Source: a virus (Duplodnaviria; Caudoviricetes). From it: a stretch of 64,000 bases of DNA. The stretch is taken from IMG/VR virus record IMGVR_UViG_3300014205_000015, positions 13,731 to 77,730 of that record; one strand, given 5' to 3'. A program made the translations under genes and the position numbers. Within the stretch, counting starts at the first letter, position 1; the number at the start of each line of letters is the position of its first letter. Positions 13,790-21,490 of this stretch are shown one piece after another. Below the pieces are notes generated by a model. It saw only the letters and a list, made by a program, of their open reading frames with translations, was not told where the DNA came from and searched no databases.

Positions 13790-14260
13790 ATGAGCGAACG
13801 ATGGGACAATCATTTCTTGCGATTGTGTCAGGACCATGCAAGGATGTCGAAAGACCCAAGCACACGAGTTGGCGCTGTAATAGTCGGACCTGACGGGGAA
13901 ATTAGGTCGGCTGGATTCAACGGTTTCCCACGCGGAATTCTCGATAGCGACGAACGCCTGAACGACCGAGACACAAAGCTAAAGCTGATGGTCCACGGGG
14001 AAATGAACGCGATTTTAGCAGCTGCGAGAGTTGGGACGCCGGTGAAGGGATGCACGCTGTACCTCGCGGCTACTGATTCATCGGGGATTGTGTGGGGCGG
14101 TCCTCCGTGTGTGCGCTGTACAGTTGAAGTAATTCAGGCAGGCATAACAGAAGTGGTGTCTTACCCCAAACGCAGTGTTCCATCAAAATGGCATGAGGAT
14201 TTGGCAATGGCTGAAACTCTTTTACGTGAAGCGGGGATTGGTTACAGATGCGTCGATTAG
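13790..14260 (+). CDS. dCMP deaminase (cytidine/deoxycytidylate deaminase family)
   Basis: SKDPSTRVGAVIV, HGEMNAI, PCVRC zinc-binding motifs. Confidence 0.92.
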   Translation: MSERWDNHFLRLCQDHARMSKDPSTRVGAVIVGPDGEIRSAGFNGFPRGILDSDERLNDRDTKLKLMVHGEMNAILAAARVGTPVKGCTLYLAATDSSGIVWGGPPCVRCTVEVIQAGITEVVSYPKRSVPSKWHEDLAMAETLLREAGIGYRCVD

Positions 14261-14547
14261 AAATCAAACCCGGAGAAACCTACGGCGACCTCAAAATCAT
14301 CAAGGAAGTCGAATCCAGGGGCAAACGTCACTTTTTATGCCAGTGTGCCTGTGGCGGAAGTCCGTCAGTTCACCGACTGGGGCACTTACGCTCAGGTCAC
14401 GCCACGACATGCGGTCGCTGTGGTTTCGAATTTGAGGGACAGCGGAAGACAATCGCAGATTGGGCGGAATTGTATGGGCTGAAGGAGTCTACGTTGCGAG
14501 CTCGGCTAAAGGTGATGGGCGTTAAAGAGGCACTGGAGCGGACATGA
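14248..14547 (+). CDS. HNH-family derivative lacking the nuclease core
   Basis: N-terminal GETYGDL...CQCACG module joined directly to the C-terminal HTH (TIADWAELYGLKESTLRARL). Confidence 0.6.
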   Translation: MRRLEIKPGETYGDLKIIKEVESRGKRHFLCQCACGGSPSVHRLGHLRSGHATTCGRCGFEFEGQRKTIADWAELYGLKESTLRARLKVMGVKEALERT

Positions 14548-14927
14548 GCCAAGCCGACGAATACATCCAGGAAGCACTGGAGCTAGCAGAGGACAATGCT
14601 GGTGACCGCTGCCCGCTGTCGTCCGATGCGTGTGGTGCATACTTCGAGCAGATACGGGACTTGTTACGGAAGGTGAGCGAAAACGCCGGACAGAACGTGA
14701 GCCAAGCCGATTCCGAGGAAATGCACACTGCCCTAGAGCAGATAGCAGCGCTAGCCCATCATGGTGGACTGATAGGATTCTCGGACGTAGACAAGTGCCT
14801 GAGAGAAGTACGGCGGATTTCGTTGAAGTGGTGGGACAAGAGCGAGTGTGCTAGGCTGCAAGAGGAAATAGACGCAGTTCCACCAGGGTTTTCAGATTCT
14901 TCGCACTTTCCTATTGACCCACAGTAG
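14544..14927 (+). CDS. hypothetical protein
   Basis: 127-aa ORF, ATGA overlap. Confidence 0.6.
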   Translation: MSQADEYIQEALELAEDNAGDRCPLSSDACGAYFEQIRDLLRKVSENAGQNVSQADSEEMHTALEQIAALAHHGGLIGFSDVDKCLREVRRISLKWWDKSECARLQEEIDAVPPGFSDSSHFPIDPQ

Positions 14928-14942
14928 CAAGCTGTATAAAGT
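14914..14942 (+). promoter_or_regulatory. sigma70-like promoter for the RAMP/array operon (TTGACC-17 nt-TAAAGT)
   Basis: Shares TTGACCCA and AGCAAG with the 12452 promoter. Confidence 0.55.
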
Positions 14943-14949
14943 ATTAAGT

Positions 14950-15018
14950 GTTGGCTCCCGGAAAAGACTCAACAATACAAACCGTCGATTTACTGTGCGT
15001 TTCTTTCCGGGAGCCAAC
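14950..15018 (+). repeat. 15-bp perfect inverted repeat in the leader
   Basis: GTTGGCTCCCGGAAA at 14950-14964 and TTTCCGGGAGCCAAC at 15004-15018. Confidence 0.85.
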
Positions 15019-15053
15019 GCAGTGATTCGGCGGTTTTTTATTGGAGTGATGCG

Positions 15054-15539
15054 ATGGCTATTGTTGAAAAAGCAAGAGTGAAATGGGCAGATAAAGAGGC
15101 GGCAATTCGGTCGCTCGAGTCTGGCGGTAAAATCGACCCACTGGATTTGATTGAAGCCGCTCGCGATCCTGAACATCCGTGTCACTCTGATTTCACTTGG
15201 GACATCGACCAAGCGGCTGCCGAACGGTGGCGGGATCAAGCCCGTGAGTTGATTCGCTCGTGCAAGTTTGAAGTGCGAGTGGAAGACGTAGGCAGCAGGG
15301 TTTGCATGTACGTTCCATCTGGCGACGAAGATGCAACATTCGTGTCACTACCAAAGATTCGCAGCAAGGCTCAGGCGTCTGCGGTTGTTCTAGCGGAGGT
15401 TGCCATGTTGCTTGGGAATGCTTCTCGGGCATACGGGATAGCGTTGTCGAAAACGAACATTGTTGGCGCTGACGTTGTTGTTCAGTTGAAAGCGATTCGC
15501 GAACTGGTGGCTACGCTGAAGGCTGAGCTAGAGGATTGA
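15054..15539 (+). CDS. partner protein of the RAMP/array locus
   Basis: LIEAARDPEHPCHSDFTWDIDQAAAERWRDQARELIR motif; lies immediately upstream of array 1. Confidence 0.8.
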   Translation: MAIVEKARVKWADKEAAIRSLESGGKIDPLDLIEAARDPEHPCHSDFTWDIDQAAAERWRDQARELIRSCKFEVRVEDVGSRVCMYVPSGDEDATFVSLPKIRSKAQASAVVLAEVAMLLGNASRAYGIALSKTNIVGADVVVQLKAIRELVATLKAELED

Positions 15540-15545
15540 TTCATT

Positions 15546-15863
15546 GGTCAAGGAATGTCGGGGCGTGGTTCGGCGTGGTGTTTCAGGTTTCGGTATGCTT
15601 GGGCGGTCATGGAGAGGTCGGGCTAGGTGCGCTCTTGCGAGTCGAGTCGAGGCGGTCGAGTCCGTGCGGGGTGCGGAGTGCTCTGGTTGGGTCGGTCCAG
15701 GTTGGGTTCGGCGGTCGCGGTTAGGAATGGCGTGCTGCGGCGAGTCGGGGCTCGTTCCGGTTGGGCGGTCAAAGTGGGTCAAGGCTTGGTGCGAAGTGGT
15801 GCGTCCTGGAAAGGCGGTCGAGGCGGGGATTGGAGTGGCCCGTATTGGTCCGACAAGGCGGTC
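15546..15863 (+). repeat. pentamer-coded array 1: six units of GGTC+(NN-GGY-like)x8-11; putative guide RNAs
   Basis: Units start at 15546, 15605, 15654, 15713, 15767 and 15816; lengths 59, 49, 59, 54, 49, 44 (all 5n+4). Confidence 0.9.
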
Positions 15864-15951
15864 AGAGAGAGAAGGTTTTTGGTTTGGAGAGTGTTTCTCC
15901 AGACTCCTACACAACAGGGGTGTTTCACCCCGCAATTAAGGAGAAGCCATT

Positions 15952-16716
15952 ATGGCAAAAGCATCTGGTGTTTTGGAAGCGATTGAAGTTGAACCACTAC
16001 GAGTTGGCAGTATGCAAGTCTGGCTGCGTGGTATCACGCCGCTGATCTGTAATCGATTGGCGGCAAAGGCACGGCGCGAGCTGTTGCTTCCGAAGGGACG
16101 AAAGTCGACGGCGGAAAAGCAGCAATCGCTGAAGCATGATCCGGTAGCTGAGTTCCGAGACAGCATGAATGTGCGATCTGGTGTTGGACCTACACGAGTA
16201 GTGTTTCCTGCGCCCGCAGTGAAGGGTTCTATGGCTACTGCCGCGCTGGAGACGAAAGGCACGAACAAAACGCAGATTGGTCGTTTGGTTCGTGTGGCTG
16301 GTTATTCACTGGATGTCTACGGAATACCAGAATTATTCATGGCTATTGTTCGTTCGGCGGACATGGCTCGGACGCCCGACGTTCGGACGCGAGCGATCTT
16401 GCGCGAGTGGTGCATGCCTGTTACCGTTCAGTACGTCAAGCCGCAGATGTCTGAGCAGGCTATTATGCAATTGCTTGCCAACGGCGGAATTATCATCGGA
16501 GTAGGTGATTTTCGTCAAGAAAAAGGCAAAGGCGATTTTGGCTGCTACGAGGTCGTCACCGAAGCCGATTGTAAGGACATTATCAAAAATGGCGGGTTGA
16601 AGCAGCAAGACGCTGCGATCAAGACTCCCGTCTGCTTCGACAGTGACACTGAAGAACTTTTAGGCTGGTTCCAACAGGAAGTTAAAGTTAGAGGAAAGGG
16701 AGAACTGGTTGCCTAA
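15952..16716 (+). CDS. RAMP/Cas7-like RNA-binding protein (Vipr-like effector)
   Basis: N-terminal VWLRGITPLICN strand and C-terminal Gly-rich loop GIIIGVGDFRQEKGKGDFGCYEV; flanked by pentamer arrays. Confidence 0.75.
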   Translation: MAKASGVLEAIEVEPLRVGSMQVWLRGITPLICNRLAAKARRELLLPKGRKSTAEKQQSLKHDPVAEFRDSMNVRSGVGPTRVVFPAPAVKGSMATAALETKGTNKTQIGRLVRVAGYSLDVYGIPELFMAIVRSADMARTPDVRTRAILREWCMPVTVQYVKPQMSEQAIMQLLANGGIIIGVGDFRQEKGKGDFGCYEVVTEADCKDIIKNGGLKQQDAAIKTPVCFDSDTEELLGWFQQEVKVRGKGELVA

Positions 16717-16725
16717 CTGTCAATT

Positions 16726-17376
16726 GGTCGCGGAGAGGTATGGCAACATAAGTCACGGTCCGGCGAGTCATGTCCGGGCGGTCATGGAATGGTTGGGCAC
16801 GGCACCATATGGTATGTCGCGGCTTGGCGTGGCGGTCCCGGTTGGGTCCGGTAAAGCTGGTCGGGGCGGGGTGTTGCGAGCCCGGGTTTGGCGGTCGGGG
16901 TACGGTTCGGCACGGCGGGTCGGAGCATGGAATGTTGCGGCGGTCGCGTCGAGGTGCGGTGCGTTTGGGCGAGTCCAGGCGCGTCGGGGTATGGTTGGGC
17001 GGTCGAGGTGAGGAAAGGCTGCGCTAGTTCAGGCGAGTCATGGCACTGGCGGTCGCGGTATGTCCTGACTAGTCATGTGAGGAAAGGCGAGGCGGGGCGG
17101 TCGAGTCGGGTCTTGGAGAGGTTCGGTCCGTTGCGGTCTGTCCGGGCGGTTTGTCAAAGCTAGGCTGCGCGTGGCGGTCATGGTGACGAGAGGCTGGGTA
17201 TGGTACGTCGCGGCGGGTCTGGGGCCGGTGAGGCGGTCAAGATTCGTCAGGTCGCGGACAGGCGGGGCGGGGTACGCTTAGGCGGGCCTAGTCCTGGCGG
17301 TCGCGTCGGGGTCTGGAGTGGCACGGTCGGGCAAGGTGAGTCGAGCTCTGGCGTGGTGAGTATCGGCAAGCCGGTC
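16726..17376 (+). repeat. pentamer-coded array 2: twelve units of GGTC+(NN-GGY-like)n; putative guide RNAs
   Basis: Units start at 16726, 16780, 16834, 16893, 16942, 17001, 17051, 17099, 17148, 17176, 17235 and 17299; three units (17001, 17051, 17148) carry 1-nt irregularities. Confidence 0.9.
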
Positions 17377-17415
17377 GTGATTGACTGTTAAGAGGTCATG
17401 CAGCACAATTGCTGC

Positions 17416-19329
17416 ATGACCTCTCCTTTTTTTGATTTAGTCCCAAAAGACCCAATTGAGAATCTCCGTTGGCGCATTCGTTGCCGCGAGCGTGCATTGG
17501 CTGATAAGCGGTTTCGAGACTCGCTATATCAAGCGTGCATGAGTGATCTTTGTTTCTGGATGGCATTTGCCTGTTGGGGATACGACCCGCGAGCCCGCTT
17601 CAAGATCGTTCCATTTGTACCCTATCCACATCAACAAGCTGTGTTCGTGGCGATGGATGAAGCCATAAGCACTGCCGAACGTGAAGAACGATCGGTCGAC
17701 GTGATCCTGGACAAAAGTCGGGCTCAAGGTGGATCTTTTGGATATCTTTGGGTCGACCTTCGGCGCTGGCTGCGCGATCCAATGTTTTCAGCAGGTTTTG
17801 TTACGAAAAATGAAGATTCGATTGATTCAAAGAGCGACTCATCGACGGTGCTGTGGAAAGTGGCATGGGCGATTGAGCGATTGCCTTTCTGGATGAAGCC
17901 CAATTACGAACGGCATCTTGGTCAGCACACTTTCATTAACAACGACAACGGTTCGTTATTGCGAGGATACTCTGCAGGGCAAGACGTGGCAGCCGGTGGC
18001 CGTACGACTGTGTTCACAGTGGACGAAGCTGGCGCGAGAGACTTCGTTTCAGGTGGCAAAGACGAAGCGGTTCAGGAGTCTATTCAAGACGTGTCCAACT
18101 GCATTCGCATGGTCTCTGCTCGTTACGTGGATGCAGGTGTCTTTCACGAAGCCTGCGAAAACCCAGACACGAAAAAGAACGGTATTCATCTTATACTGGA
18201 CTGGAAAGACCACCCCGCTCAAAGCAAGCACTCTTACATTGTGCGAGAGGGAATCGCGGTTGCCATAAAGCCGGAAGATCAAGCGGCGGTCACGGAATAC
18301 CACCGAAAACACCCTGACCTGCGATCCCGACTGGAAAGAAAAGGATTTAAATTTGAAGTGGTTGTTCGCAGTCCGTGGTACGACTCTCGATGTTTGCGCC
18401 CGACAGCCACCCCGCGACTGATAGCTTCGCAGCTCGACCGCAACCCTCGCGGAGCAGTAGGTAAAGTTTTCGCATCAGACCTCTTGGACCGCATGAAGCG
18501 AGAGCACTGCAAGGGTCCAGTTTGGGTGGGCAATCCAGTATTTGACTCAGAAACCTGCAAACTAACGGGATTGATTCCCAGGGATGACGGCTTGCTGAAA
18601 CTGTGGTTCAAGCCGGGCATCGACAACTCACCGCCGCTGGGACCGTTCACCGCGGGATGCGACATCGCTTCGGGTGGAGTTGGGGCGTATTCCTCAAACT
18701 CGGTCATAACGGCGCTGGACGACAGAACCGGGGAGCAAGTCTTGGAGTACACGGTCAAGGGACTCGAGCCACGACCGTTTGCACGCCGGGTGGTTGGGCT
18801 GTGCATGTGGCTTAGAAACGCACTGCTTGGCTGGGAGGATTCCGGGGTGTCTGGTGGTTTTGCTAAGGAAATCATGGAAGTTCTTTATTATGGTTCCGTG
18901 TTCTATCGGGACGTAAACCAGCTCGGTTCCCAGAAGAAAAGCCGCAAGCCTGGCTGGCCGTGCCGTGACGCAGACAAAGCGGACGATTTTGAGCAAATGG
19001 CGCTGGCGATGGAGACTGGGAAGTTCGTTCCGCGTTCCGAGGAAATGATTGTCGAGTGTTCTGAATATGAGTGGGACGGCACCAAAATCATTCACGCACC
19101 GTCGAAAAACAAGGGGGCGGCTGACAAGAATCACGCCGACCGCGCTATAGCAATGGCAGGCTGTTGGAAGGTCTTTAGCACCGATAATGCAACCCGTAAG
19201 ATTGACACAGACGTGGAAAACGGTCAGAATCCAGAGTACGGCTCGTTTTTATGGCGAGAGCAGCAAGAGCGCCGGAACGTGAAAACGGGTAGCCCGAAGT
19301 TCGGGATTAGGGACATTATTGGACGCTAA
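17416..19329 (+). CDS. terL: terminase large subunit
   Basis: DKSRAQGGS Walker A-like, VDEAG Walker B, GCDIASG and HADRAIA RNase H-fold acidic motifs; lies upstream of portal and capsid. Confidence 0.9.
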   Translation: MTSPFFDLVPKDPIENLRWRIRCRERALADKRFRDSLYQACMSDLCFWMAFACWGYDPRARFKIVPFVPYPHQQAVFVAMDEAISTAEREERSVDVILDKSRAQGGSFGYLWVDLRRWLRDPMFSAGFVTKNEDSIDSKSDSSTVLWKVAWAIERLPFWMKPNYERHLGQHTFINNDNGSLLRGYSAGQDVAAGGRTTVFTVDEAGARDFVSGGKDEAVQESIQDVSNCIRMVSARYVDAGVFHEACENPDTKKNGIHLILDWKDHPAQSKHSYIVREGIAVAIKPEDQAAVTEYHRKHPDLRSRLERKGFKFEVVVRSPWYDSRCLRPTATPRLIASQLDRNPRGAVGKVFASDLLDRMKREHCKGPVWVGNPVFDSETCKLTGLIPRDDGLLKLWFKPGIDNSPPLGPFTAGCDIASGGVGAYSSNSVITALDDRTGEQVLEYTVKGLEPRPFARRVVGLCMWLRNALLGWEDSGVSGGFAKEIMEVLYYGSVFYRDVNQLGSQKKSRKPGWPCRDADKADDFEQMALAMETGKFVPRSEEMIVECSEYEWDGTKIIHAPSKNKGAADKNHADRAIAMAGCWKVFSTDNATRKIDTDVENGQNPEYGSFLWREQQERRNVKTGSPKFGIRDIIGR

Positions 19330-19690: not shown

Positions 19691-21490
19691 ATGATTGACC
19701 TCTCCAATCCCGAACGACGAGCAAGGCTGCAGAAGGCTATCAGGTCGTCACGAGACGCACTTGAGCCATTTCGTCGGGTACGGAAAGAACTAATCAAAGA
19801 CTATGTTGGCTCGTGGTATCCAGGTGGAAGAGACAGCGAGAACGAAAGAGTCCTCGTTAATCTCATCAATCAGACTGCCCGTATCTACACGATTGCCCTG
19901 GCAGCGAACAACCCGCAAGTCTTAGTCTCCACCCCACGGACTGAAAACATCGCCTTCGCTCGCAGGTTCGAAGTGAACCTGAACAAGCTGATTAGCGACA
20001 TGACCCTGGACAAGACGTTCCGGCAGATTGTCACAGACGCCTTCTTCTGTCTGGGTTGTGGCGTGGTGATGATGCGAGACACCAGTACCCGCTTCCACGG
20101 CTTACTAGAGTCTGAGGAGGACGTGTGGTTGGATCCAGGTGAACCGTGGCTCAATCGGGTTTCGCTGGACGACCTCATCTTAGACATGCCAGCCAAAGAG
20201 CTTTCGAAGATGCGCTATTGCGGGCATCGCTACCGCGCCGACTACGAAAAGGTGATGGACGAGCCCGGCTATTCGAAGAAGGCTAAGGACAAGCTCAAGC
20301 CAACCGGGAGAGAACACCACGACAGCACAGGCGCAGCTCGAGACATTGCTTCGGAGTACGGCAGCGCCCAAGACGACGACCTGAAAGACATGATTTGGCT
20401 CATGGATATTTGGGTGGCTGAGAACAATTCAGTCGTGACGATGGCATGTGACCAAGTTGACCTGGAACCTCTGATTGAGCGCGAATGGACTGGCTCTCAG
20501 GCGGGACCGTACAAGTTCCTCTCCCTGGGAGATACTCCAGACAACGTAATCCCAACGTCACCTGCAATCAATCTGAAGGGAATGCACGACCTACAGAACA
20601 GGCTGCATCGCAGGATGGAGGATGATTCCGACGCGCACCGATTGGTGAACGTGTATCCGCCTGGCAAGGAGGATGATGCGAAGCGAATTCAGACGGCAGA
20701 GCGCAATTCGTGGCAAAGGATGACTAATCCTGCGGATATTAAGCAGGTTGAAGTTGGCGGTATTGACCAGCGCGACATGGCGATGGCTACGTTCATTCAA
20801 ACGGAATACGACCGTTTCGCTGGTAACCTTCAAGCGATGGGCGGACTTGGAGCGCAAGCTGGGACAGTGGGGCAAGAGGAGTTGATTCACGGTCAGCTAT
20901 CCAAGAACGTGGCTGACATGCGGATGGGTGTGGTGAACTTCGCGGCTGATTGCATCTTGGACCTGGGGAGGTTGATGTGGGAGGACCAGACGCTTGAACT
21001 GCACACTTCAATGCCAGTGGGCAACAGCGGGATTCAAGTCACCTCTGACTGGTCACCCGACTACCGCATGGGTGAGTTCGATGACTACGATTTTCGGGTC
21101 GAACCGTACTCGATGGTCTTCAAAACTCCCCAGCAGCACCTTCAGGAGTATTTCCAGGTGCTACGTGAGATTGCCCCGCTCTGGCCTATGTTCCAGGCGT
21201 CGGGAGCTAGCCTCAACGTCCAGGTTTTAGTGGAAGAGATGGCACGTCTGTTGAATAAGCCGGAAATTACGCAGTTGATTACGTTTGCGACTCCCGCTGA
21301 GATGCTCGGTGGAGACCAGAATACAGTCAGACAGAGCCCGAACACGACACGAACTAACATCCGCAAAAATATTTCGACTGGCGGCACCGAGCAATCGCGC
21401 AGCAATTCCTTGATTCGCGACCTCATGGCAGGGCAGTCCTCAAGTACCAACGGACAGCAACAAGCAGCTATGGAAAGGGCACCCGCATGA
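19691..21490 (+). CDS. portal protein
   Basis: 599 aa, helical, between terL and scaffold/capsid; Gln-rich tail. Confidence 0.75.
   Translation: MIDLSNPERRARLQKAIRSSRDALEPFRRVRKELIKDYVGSWYPGGRDSENERVLVNLINQTARIYTIALAANNPQVLVSTPRTENIAFARRFEVNLNKLISDMTLDKTFRQIVTDAFFCLGCGVVMMRDTSTRFHGLLESEEDVWLDPGEPWLNRVSLDDLILDMPAKELSKMRYCGHRYRADYEKVMDEPGYSKKAKDKLKPTGREHHDSTGAARDIASEYGSAQDDDLKDMIWLMDIWVAENNSVVTMACDQVDLEPLIEREWTGSQAGPYKFLSLGDTPDNVIPTSPAINLKGMHDLQNRLHRRMEDDSDAHRLVNVYPPGKEDDAKRIQTAERNSWQRMTNPADIKQVEVGGIDQRDMAMATFIQTEYDRFAGNLQAMGGLGAQAGTVGQEELIHGQLSKNVADMRMGVVNFAADCILDLGRLMWEDQTLELHTSMPVGNSGIQVTSDWSPDYRMGEFDDYDFRVEPYSMVFKTPQQHLQEYFQVLREIAPLWPMFQASGASLNVQVLVEEMARLLNKPEITQLITFATPAEMLGGDQNTVRQSPNTTRTNIRKNISTGGTEQSRSNSLIRDLMAGQSSSTNGQQQAAMERAPA

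What the first reader, a model, noticed from the sequence alone, without database searches (positions are those of the whole stretch)
16726..16779. Guide against a homolog of the system's own effector gene
NN = GC GA AT AA AA AC CC GA AT CG, compatible with AD(M/I)(N/K)(K/N)TPD(I/M)R. The resident RAMP gene has ADMARTPDVR at 16357-16386 (7/10 dinucleotides, 15/20 nt). Inference: the guide targets the equivalent RAMP gene of competing elements, which would mean these systems target each other.
Basis: partly seen in the sequence, partly recalled or inferred. Interest (0 to 1): 0.85.

Follow-up and report, generated by a model that had tools for sequence, protein, structure and literature searches.

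The report
VIPR guide aimed at rivals' vipr
This 54-base stretch is one guide RNA of a phage VIPR system, a CRISPR-like DNA silencer first described in 2026; it spells a conserved motif of the system's own protein gene as rival phages write it, so it is a well-supported new example of a known kind of phage-against-phage weapon.

Summary
Window 16726-16779 is GGTC followed by ten 5-base steps, each a variable NN plus a G-rich triplet. It is the first unit of an 11-unit array directly after a 254-aa gene.

Read as NNx codons, the unit matches the resident gene at 16357-16385 in only 7/10 dinucleotides (15/20 bases). This local match is not significant on its own at base level.

The exact gapped pattern occurs in 92 IMG/VR contigs, against 0 for a control with the dinucleotides in reverse order. 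Every hit lies in frame at the equivalent position of a homologue, reading AD[MI]NKTPD[MI]R. The closest relatives, in Planctomycetes MAGs, match 19/20.

The system is already published. It is VIPR (bioRxiv 10.64898/2026.04.26.720920, .720927 and 2026.10.15.759431): a lone Cas7-like Vipr protein, GGY/NN guide RNAs and a one-base-skip code. Those preprints already report guides that target other VIPR systems.

- The 254-aa protein matches the solved SUSP1 Vipr by sequence and Cas7/Csm3 by fold.
- The targeted motif encodes the thumb of the protein.
- The resident gene differs at two central codons (NK to AR), which puts it below the published 0.8 match threshold.

This scan has noted VIPR systems in more than 100 other genomes, including anti-vipr guides. 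Verdict: real, a new member of a known kind.

The parts
15054..15539 (+). vap-like accessory gene (161 aa, phrog_15946, no Pfam family)
   Evidence: In 12 of 92 related loci a homologue lies 0-51 bp (389 bp in one) downstream of vipr on the same strand. The fold was not resolved.
15605..15859 (+). vrRNA array 1: five GGTC-delimited units of 8-11 NN+G(G/T)Y pentamers; one more degenerate unit may start at 15546
15860..15951 (+). leader of vipr with two small hairpins and a ribosome-binding site; similar in L093 and L094
15952..16716 (+). vipr gene: a 254-aa stand-alone RAMP (Cas7-like) protein
   Evidence: PDB sequence hit to SUSP1 Vipr 36pp, E=0.0027 for the single sequence and 2.3e-5 for the profile. 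AlphaFold2 pLDDT 84. Foldseek matches Csm3/Cas7 chains with E down to 1.7e-5. 1526 cluster representatives are related.
16357..16386 (+). resident counterpart of the guide's target: ADMARTPDVR, at the thumb hairpin tip. It matches the guide at 15/20 read bases (0.75).
   Evidence: R147, just after the motif, aligns with the SUSP1 thumb residue R138.
16726..16779 (+). the finding: first unit of array 2, an anti-vipr vrRNA guide of GGTC plus 10 pentamers (NN = GC GA AT AA AA AC CC GA AT CG)
16726..17372 (+). vrRNA array 2: 11 units, with the register shifting by one base at each GGCGGTC boundary
17391..17434 (+). intrinsic terminator (15-bp stem plus T-run) ending the + strand transcript of the locus
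17713..17831 (+). context: own terL segments matched in frame at 19/24 (17713-17747) and 22/28 (17791-17831) by units 17235 and 17299, which probably target rivals' terL

Best explanation
The locus 15054-17434 is a VIPR system of a 77.7-kb phage, with the order vap-like gene, guide array 1, vipr, guide array 2, terminator. Unit 16726-16779 is one vrRNA guide. By analogy with the solved SUSP1 system (inferred, not shown here), Vipr protomers coat the RNA one per pentamer. They hold each G-rich triplet and present the ten NN dinucleotides. These pair with double-stranded DNA while skipping every third target base, and the bound complex blocks transcription.

The ten dinucleotides spell codon positions 1-2 of AD[MI]NKTPD[MI]R, the thumb-coding motif of vipr genes in other phages. 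The guide would therefore bind and silence a co-infecting or resident rival's vipr, and possibly whatever is co-transcribed with it. It would do so regardless of synonymous codon choice.

The phage's own vipr reads ADMARTPDVR. Four mismatched read bases in the two central codons plus one more give 0.75 identity, below the 0.8 used in the preprints, so the phage should spare itself. Whether the guide acts through this phage's Vipr or also loads onto the rival's Vipr is open.
For: Shown here:
- The pentamer architecture is real. 150 of 161 triplets start with G; 84 are GGY and 29 are GTC.
- The exact gapped pattern occurs in 92 viral contigs, against 0 for a control with the dinucleotides in reverse order.
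- All 92 hits are in frame, on the coding strand, at the same alignment position of homologues.
- The 92 targets comprise 43 different 29-mers. All nine skipped bases vary, so a contiguous guide could match at most 14 of them.
- Independent test of the code: 10-pentamer windows from the arrays of 92 loci plus the window, scanned against all loci, gave 283 hits (100 of them from guides outside the window) with a 1-base skip on the coding strand. Skips of 0, 2 or 4 bases and the other strand gave none, and there were no self hits (8-dinucleotide seeds).
- Almost every homologue has such an array directly downstream.
- The protein matches SUSP1 Vipr (PDB 36pp) over the thumb and G-loop. GVGDFR aligns with GVGDWR, and R147 with R138. 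These residues are invariant in the family alignment.
- The predicted fold matches Csm3/Cas7.
- The closest relatives (73% identity, Planctomycetes MAGs) match 19/20 and do not carry this guide.
- The own genome has no match above 0.75 for this guide.
- The terminator and gene order place the array on the + strand transcript.

From the literature: the one-base-skip code, dsDNA binding, silencing and guides that target other VIPR systems.
Against:
- One of the ten triplets (CAT) has no G and three are GTC. In SUSP1, perturbing the GGY motifs abolished silencing, so this guide may be weakened.
- The units lack the roughly 40-nt 3' tail of the characterised type II vrRNAs.
- The exact-match contigs span 38-68% GC, so many probably infect other hosts and never meet this phage.
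- The AR variant of the motif also occurs in 7 distant contigs that lack the guide. It is therefore standing variation and not demonstrably an escape evolved here.
- Only 4 of 150 unbiased family representatives fit the guide fully at protein level.
Confidence: 0.78

Rival explanations
1. Autoregulation. The guide binds the phage's own vipr at 16357-16385 through the partial match and tunes expression of its own system.
For: The best dinucleotide match in the whole window is in the own gene, in frame. The neighbouring units 17235 and 17299 also match the own terL at 0.79.
Against: The match is 0.75, with four consecutive mismatched read bases in the centre, and is not above shuffles at base level. 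Perfect 20/20 matches exist in 92 other phage contigs. The preprints found no self-targets at or above 0.8.
Confidence: 0.07
2. Relic guide. The unit was once a working anti-vipr guide but is now decaying or not expressed, and has no present effect.
For: Degenerate triplets (CAT, and GTC three times) lie within the unit. No identical guide was found in any other viral or metagenome contig.
Against: All ten NN are still a perfect match to a large living target set. GTC is a regular triplet in this clade, at 18% of pentamers (also the L036 array).
Confidence: 0.12
3. Chance resemblance between a repeat unit and a coding motif.
For: The local 15/20 match is within the range of shuffles.
Against: There are 92 exact database hits, all in homologues at one position, against 0 for the reverse-order control. 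Other skips and the other strand give no hits.
Confidence: 0.01

Closest known systems
VIPR systems, type II of Escherichia phage SUSP1 and the Pseudomonas fulva prophage (bioRxiv 10.64898/2026.04.26.720920; structures 10.64898/2026.04.26.720927, PDB 36pp)
   Same: Both have a lone small RAMP protein, a small accessory gene, guide RNAs made of pentamers with a G-rich triplet and a free NN, target reading with a one-base skip that falls on codon wobble positions, phage carriage, and targets in rival mobile elements. The G-loop D-aromatic-R and the thumb arginine are conserved.
   Different: The sequence relation is distant (E 2e-5, over the C-terminal third only). There is no ~40-nt pseudoknot tail between units, which are separated only by GGCGGTC. 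GTC is a frequent alternative triplet. The gene order is vap, array, vipr, array. The protein is 254 aa against 202 aa. The host lineage is probably Planctomycetes.
vrRNAs that target other VIPR systems: P. fulva clade, and solo vrRNAs of VIPR-null SUSP1-family phages that target vipr (bioRxiv 10.64898/2026.10.15.759431)
   Same: In both, a guide spells the vipr gene of relatives and scores lower on its own locus than on rivals.
   Different: Here the carrier keeps its own complete VIPR system. The footprint is the thumb-coding motif in mid-gene, not the first codons or the gene end reported for SUSP1. Self-avoidance rests on two amino-acid replacements (NK to AR) plus I/M to V.
Staggered vrRNA arrays (legend of fig. 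S18 of 10.64898/2026.04.26.720920)
   Same: Units abut directly, and the register moves by one base at each boundary (a 4-base GGTC step).
   Different: The figure itself could not be seen, so identity of architecture is inferred from the legend only.
Class 1 CRISPR Cas7 backbone (Csm3, Cmr4, type VII Cas7)
   Same: The RAMP fold has a thumb hairpin that interrupts the guide-target pairing at regular intervals.
   Different: There are no identical direct repeats, no other cas genes and no adaptation genes. The period is 5 in the guide and 3 in the target, against 6 and 6 in CRISPR.

Membership tests
VIPR (Vipr + vrRNA + vap) | Stand-alone RAMP protein with an RRM core, thumb hairpin and glycine-rich loop | tested here: met
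   Sequence hit to SUSP1 Vipr 36pp: E 0.0027 for the single sequence, 2.3e-5 for the profile. The AF2 model (pLDDT 84) has a beta-hairpin at 126-150 and a G-rich loop at 183-197. Foldseek matches Csm3/Cas7 with E 1.7e-5 and probability 1.0.
VIPR (Vipr + vrRNA + vap) | Residues that grip GGY in SUSP1 (thumb R138; G-loop D177, W178, R179) | tested here: met
   The HMMER alignment pairs R147 with R138 and D186-F187-R188 with D177-W178-R179. R147, D186 and R188 are invariant in the 20-sequence family alignment, and some members have W at 187. H17, K33 and E71/M72 lie outside the aligned part and were not assessed.
VIPR (Vipr + vrRNA + vap) | Flanking non-coding arrays of about 9-16 pentamers with a conserved GGY and a hypervariable NN | tested here: met
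   16 units of 8-14 pentamers. Of 161 triplets, 84 are GGY, 13 GGA and 29 GTC, and 150 start with G; all 16 dinucleotides occur at NN. Homologues carry the same kind of array directly downstream.
VIPR (Vipr + vrRNA + vap) | NN read the target with a one-base skip that falls on wobble positions | tested here: met
   hits occur only with a 1-base skip (283 against 0 for skips 0, 2 and 4). against control: 92 against 0. All hits are in codon register.
VIPR (Vipr + vrRNA + vap) | Adjacent small accessory gene (vap) | tested here: met
   Homologues of the 161-aa protein sit directly after vipr in 12 of 92 loci. Its predicted DNA-binding nature could not be confirmed.
VIPR (Vipr + vrRNA + vap) | No self-target at or above 0.8 identity | tested here: met
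   This guide scores 0.75 on the own genome at best. Two short units reach 0.81-0.83 elsewhere, but within the range of shuffles (p 0.085 and 0.44).
VIPR type II (SUSP1 clade) | Conserved ~40-nt 3' tail with a pseudoknot after each repeat tract | tested here: not met
   Units are separated only by GGCGGTC. This fits the 'staggered array' architecture instead, so the locus is not filed under type II.
VIPR (Vipr + vrRNA + vap) | vrRNA expressed, processed and bound by Vipr; target DNA silenced | not testable with these tools
This needs small-RNA sequencing, pull-down and reporter assays.
CRISPR-Cas | Identical direct repeats separating unique spacers, plus cas genes | tested here: not met
   No repeat family beyond the 7-base GGCGGTC. 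No Rfam hit. The neighbours are vap, terL and portal.

The most novel reading that the evidence does not exclude
Guides against vipr force protein-level escape. Because the code ignores wobble bases, a phage can become immune to a rival's anti-vipr guide, or carry such a guide itself, only by changing amino acids. The variation at thumb-tip residues 139-140 of the family (N/A/S/K and R/K/H; NK in the targets, AR here) would then be the trace of a VIPR-against-VIPR arms race that shapes the effector protein itself.
Probability: 0.2. Interest if true: 0.6.

Novelty: new member of a known kind. Interest (0 to 1): 0.4.

Why it matters
This is a clean natural example of what the gapped VIPR code achieves. 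One 20-base guide matches 92 rival genes that differ at every skipped position. These comprise 43 different 29-mers from contigs of 38-68% GC, and a contiguous guide could cover at most 14 of them.

It extends VIPR-against-VIPR targeting in three ways:
- from Enterobacteria and Pseudomonas phages to a probable Planctomycetes phage;
- to the tail-less, staggered array form;
- to a new footprint, the thumb-coding motif.

It also offers a simple matched pair for experiments on how many central mismatches protect self: the NK-type site against the resident AR-type site.

Tried and rejected
- **Rfam** on 14500-18500: no match.
- **Pfam** on the 254-aa and 161-aa proteins: no match; PHROGs gave only families of unknown function.
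- **Exact-pattern scans of viral contigs for two other units** (17235 and 17299, the terL-like ones): 0 hits each. Their exact targets are therefore not in IMG/VR, and only the 0.79 matches to the own terL are known.
- **Search for the same guide in period-5 form elsewhere:** 0 hits in viral contigs and 0 in metagenome contigs. Co-occurrence of the guide with the AR variant could therefore not be tested in relatives.
- **Contigs with the resident ADMARTPDVR variant** (7, L095-L101): none carries the guide. I dropped the claim that AR arose here as an escape.
- **vap-like protein:** no solved relative by sequence. The model is moderate (pLDDT 75.5, pTM 0.46) and Foldseek found nothing at E <= 0.001. 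The weak rows include winged-helix regulators, but I make no claim from them.
- **Terminase small subunit or pac-site repeats:** considered early because the locus lies just before terL. Rejected because the variable dinucleotides carry codon information of other phages' genes.
- **GGTC as a first guide pentamer:** rejected, because its dinucleotide (TG or CG) does not match the targets.
- **Supplementary tables of the first preprint:** not held, so the VIPR type number could not be assigned.

Full report
**What is at the coordinates.** Window 16726-16779 begins 9 bases after the stop codon of a 254-aa gene (15952-16716). It reads GGTC followed by ten 5-base steps, each a variable dinucleotide plus a G-rich triplet (GGA GGT GGC CAT GTC GGT GGC GTC GTC GGC). 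It is the first of 11 such units, which end at a strong intrinsic terminator at 17391-17434. Five or six more units lie upstream of the gene, after a 161-aa gene. The heptamer GGCGGTC occurs 16 times in these two tracts, at spacings that are mostly 4 plus a multiple of 5. It occurs only 11 times in the rest of the 64 kb on that strand. Of 161 triplets, 150 start with G; 84 are GGY and 29 are GTC. All 16 dinucleotides occur at the NN positions.

**The local match.** The gene reads ADMARTPDVR at 16357-16386, in frame. The guide matches it at 7/10 dinucleotides and 15/20 bases.
- It is the only 7/10 hit in the window.
- 6% of dinucleotide-order shuffles reach 7/10 somewhere in the window, and 0.04% reach it in frame within this gene.
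- At base level the score is ordinary (p=0.59 over the whole 77.7-kb genome).

Taken alone, the observation would not carry the interpretation.

**The prediction tested.** I scanned IMG/VR for the exact pattern GCN GAN ATN AAN AAN ACN CCN GAN ATN CG.
- 92 contigs matched.
- The same dinucleotides in reverse order gave none.
- All 92 matches translate to AD[MI]NKTPD[MI]R. They lie inside ORFs whose products are 40-52% identical to the 254-aa protein (E 1e-31 to 6e-84) and occupy the same alignment columns.
- The 92 sites comprise 43 different 29-mers. The commonest covers 14 of them, and all nine skipped positions vary.
- The two closest relatives (73% identity) are on contigs of Planctomycetaceae and Thermoguttaceae MAGs. 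They read ADMNKTPDVR and match 19/20.

**The code is general in this family.** Nearly every one of the 92 loci has a 5-base periodic array directly downstream of the homologue, on the same strand. I took in-phase stretches of 8 or 10 pentamers from all arrays and looked for their NN strings in all loci, with 0, 1, 2 or 4 skipped bases and on both strands.
- With 10 pentamers and at most one dinucleotide mismatch, there were 283 hits for a one-base skip on the coding strand and none for any other setting.
- 100 of these hits came from guides outside the window, so they are independent of how the loci were collected.
- None was a self hit (8-dinucleotide seeds).
- Those other guides hit other phage genes 1-7 kb from vipr.
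- Among 168 unique full units, one more (in L044) hits vipr genes of another sublineage at 'DIPGAKKSE'. Shuffled guides gave no hits.

**It is a known system.** A literature search found three 2026 preprints on VIPR, Viral Interference Programmable Repeat.
- The first describes a stand-alone RAMP (Vipr), an accessory gene (vap), and vrRNAs of 9-16 pentamers with a conserved GGY and free NN. The NN read double-stranded DNA with a one-base skip that falls on wobble positions, on either strand and without a PAM, and binding causes transcriptional silencing. [quoted passage not shown]
- The second gives cryo-EM structures. One protomer binds per repeat; the thumb and G-loop hold the GGY, and the NN pair with the target.
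- The third reports solo vrRNAs in SUSP1-family phages that target relatives' vipr and score lower on self.
- The preprints use 0.8 identity at the informative positions as the target threshold.

**Membership.**
- The 254-aa protein hits the solved SUSP1 Vipr (PDB 36pp) by sequence, with E 0.0027 alone and 2.3e-5 as a family profile. The hit covers the thumb base and G-loop. GVGDFR pairs with GVGDWR (the D177-W178-R179 that hold the guanines and the pyrimidine), and R147 pairs with the thumb R138.
- These residues are invariant in the family alignment.
- The AlphaFold2 model (pLDDT 84) has a beta-hairpin at 126-150 with a flexible tip. Foldseek matches Csm3 and Cas7 chains with E down to 1.7e-5.
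- The 161-aa gene has homologues directly after vipr in 12 of 92 loci, so it behaves as a vap. Its fold remained unresolved.
- The locus differs from the characterised type II. There is no ~40-nt tail between units, and the register shifts by one base at each GGCGGTC. This fits the 'staggered arrays' named in a figure legend.
- I could not assign a type number because the supplementary tables are not held.

**What the guide most likely does.** The target motif lies at the tip and second strand of the thumb hairpin, directly before R147.
- Shown: 92 rival genes match at 1.0 and the nearest relatives at 0.95. The own gene scores 0.75, with four mismatched read bases together in the centre (NK to AR) and one more (I/M to V).
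- Inferred from the preprints: the RNP binds the rival's vipr DNA and blocks its transcription, while the carrier is spared.

The NN string equals the coding strand, so the RNA would pair with the template strand. The preprints show that either strand works.

**Caveats.**
- There are no RNA data for this phage.
- The unit has one triplet without G and three GTC triplets.
- Many exact-match contigs probably belong to other hosts (GC 38-68%).
- In an unbiased sample of 150 family representatives, only 4 fit the guide fully at protein level, 28 fit at 9/10 or better, and 54 at 8/10 or better.
- The AR variant also occurs in seven distant contigs without the guide. It is standing variation that permits carriage of the guide, not a proven escape.
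- No other contig carries the same guide.

**Verdict.** This scan has itself recorded VIPR systems in more than 100 other genomes, including anti-vipr and anti-vap guides. The finding is a new member of a known kind. Its modest additions are a new host lineage, the tail-less array form and a thumb-motif footprint.

Noticed in passing
window 17099-17147 and 15189-15222: Unit 17099 (GA GG TT GA TC CC GC CT CG) matches the vap-like gene's conserved DFTWDIDQAAAE region at 8/9 dinucleotides with a two-base skip (period 4), not the published one-base skip. None of 1500 shuffles reached 8/9. After about 64 unit-by-skip tests the corrected p is about 0.04. This may be chance and is unexplained.
   Followed up: partly
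window 17235-17372 against 17713-17747 and 17791-17831: The last two units of array 2 match the phage's own terL in frame at 19/24 and 22/28. The mismatches are codon-family swaps (Ser TC/AG, Arg AG/CG) or conservative replacements, so they look like guides against rivals' terL. Exact targets were not found in IMG/VR.
   Followed up: partly
window 15860-15951; L093 and L094 upstream of vipr: The leader between array 1 and vipr has two small hairpins before the ribosome-binding site. Similar hairpins occur at the same place in the two Planctomycetes relatives. They may be a terminal vrRNA cap or a regulatory element.
   Followed up: no
L044, oriented position about 2326: Another phage's array holds a guide (GA AT CC GA GC AA AA TT GA) that matches the 'DIPGAKKSE' region of vipr genes of a different sublineage (three vipr ORFs among the fetched loci, not identified individually) at 0.85 or above. 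Its own vipr differs there.
   Followed up: partly
L046, downstream of vipr and vap: A GC-rich relative has an array of almost pure NN-GGC pentamers. Its unit boundaries look like GGCTGGC rather than GGCGGTC, so the delimiter varies within the family.
   Followed up: no
window 13790-14260: A dCMP deaminase gene (Pfam PF00383, E 1.6e-16; phrog_174) lies about 800 bp upstream of the VIPR locus. The contig is a 77,730-bp phage genome, with terL at 17398-19329 and portal at 19691-21490.
   Followed up: no
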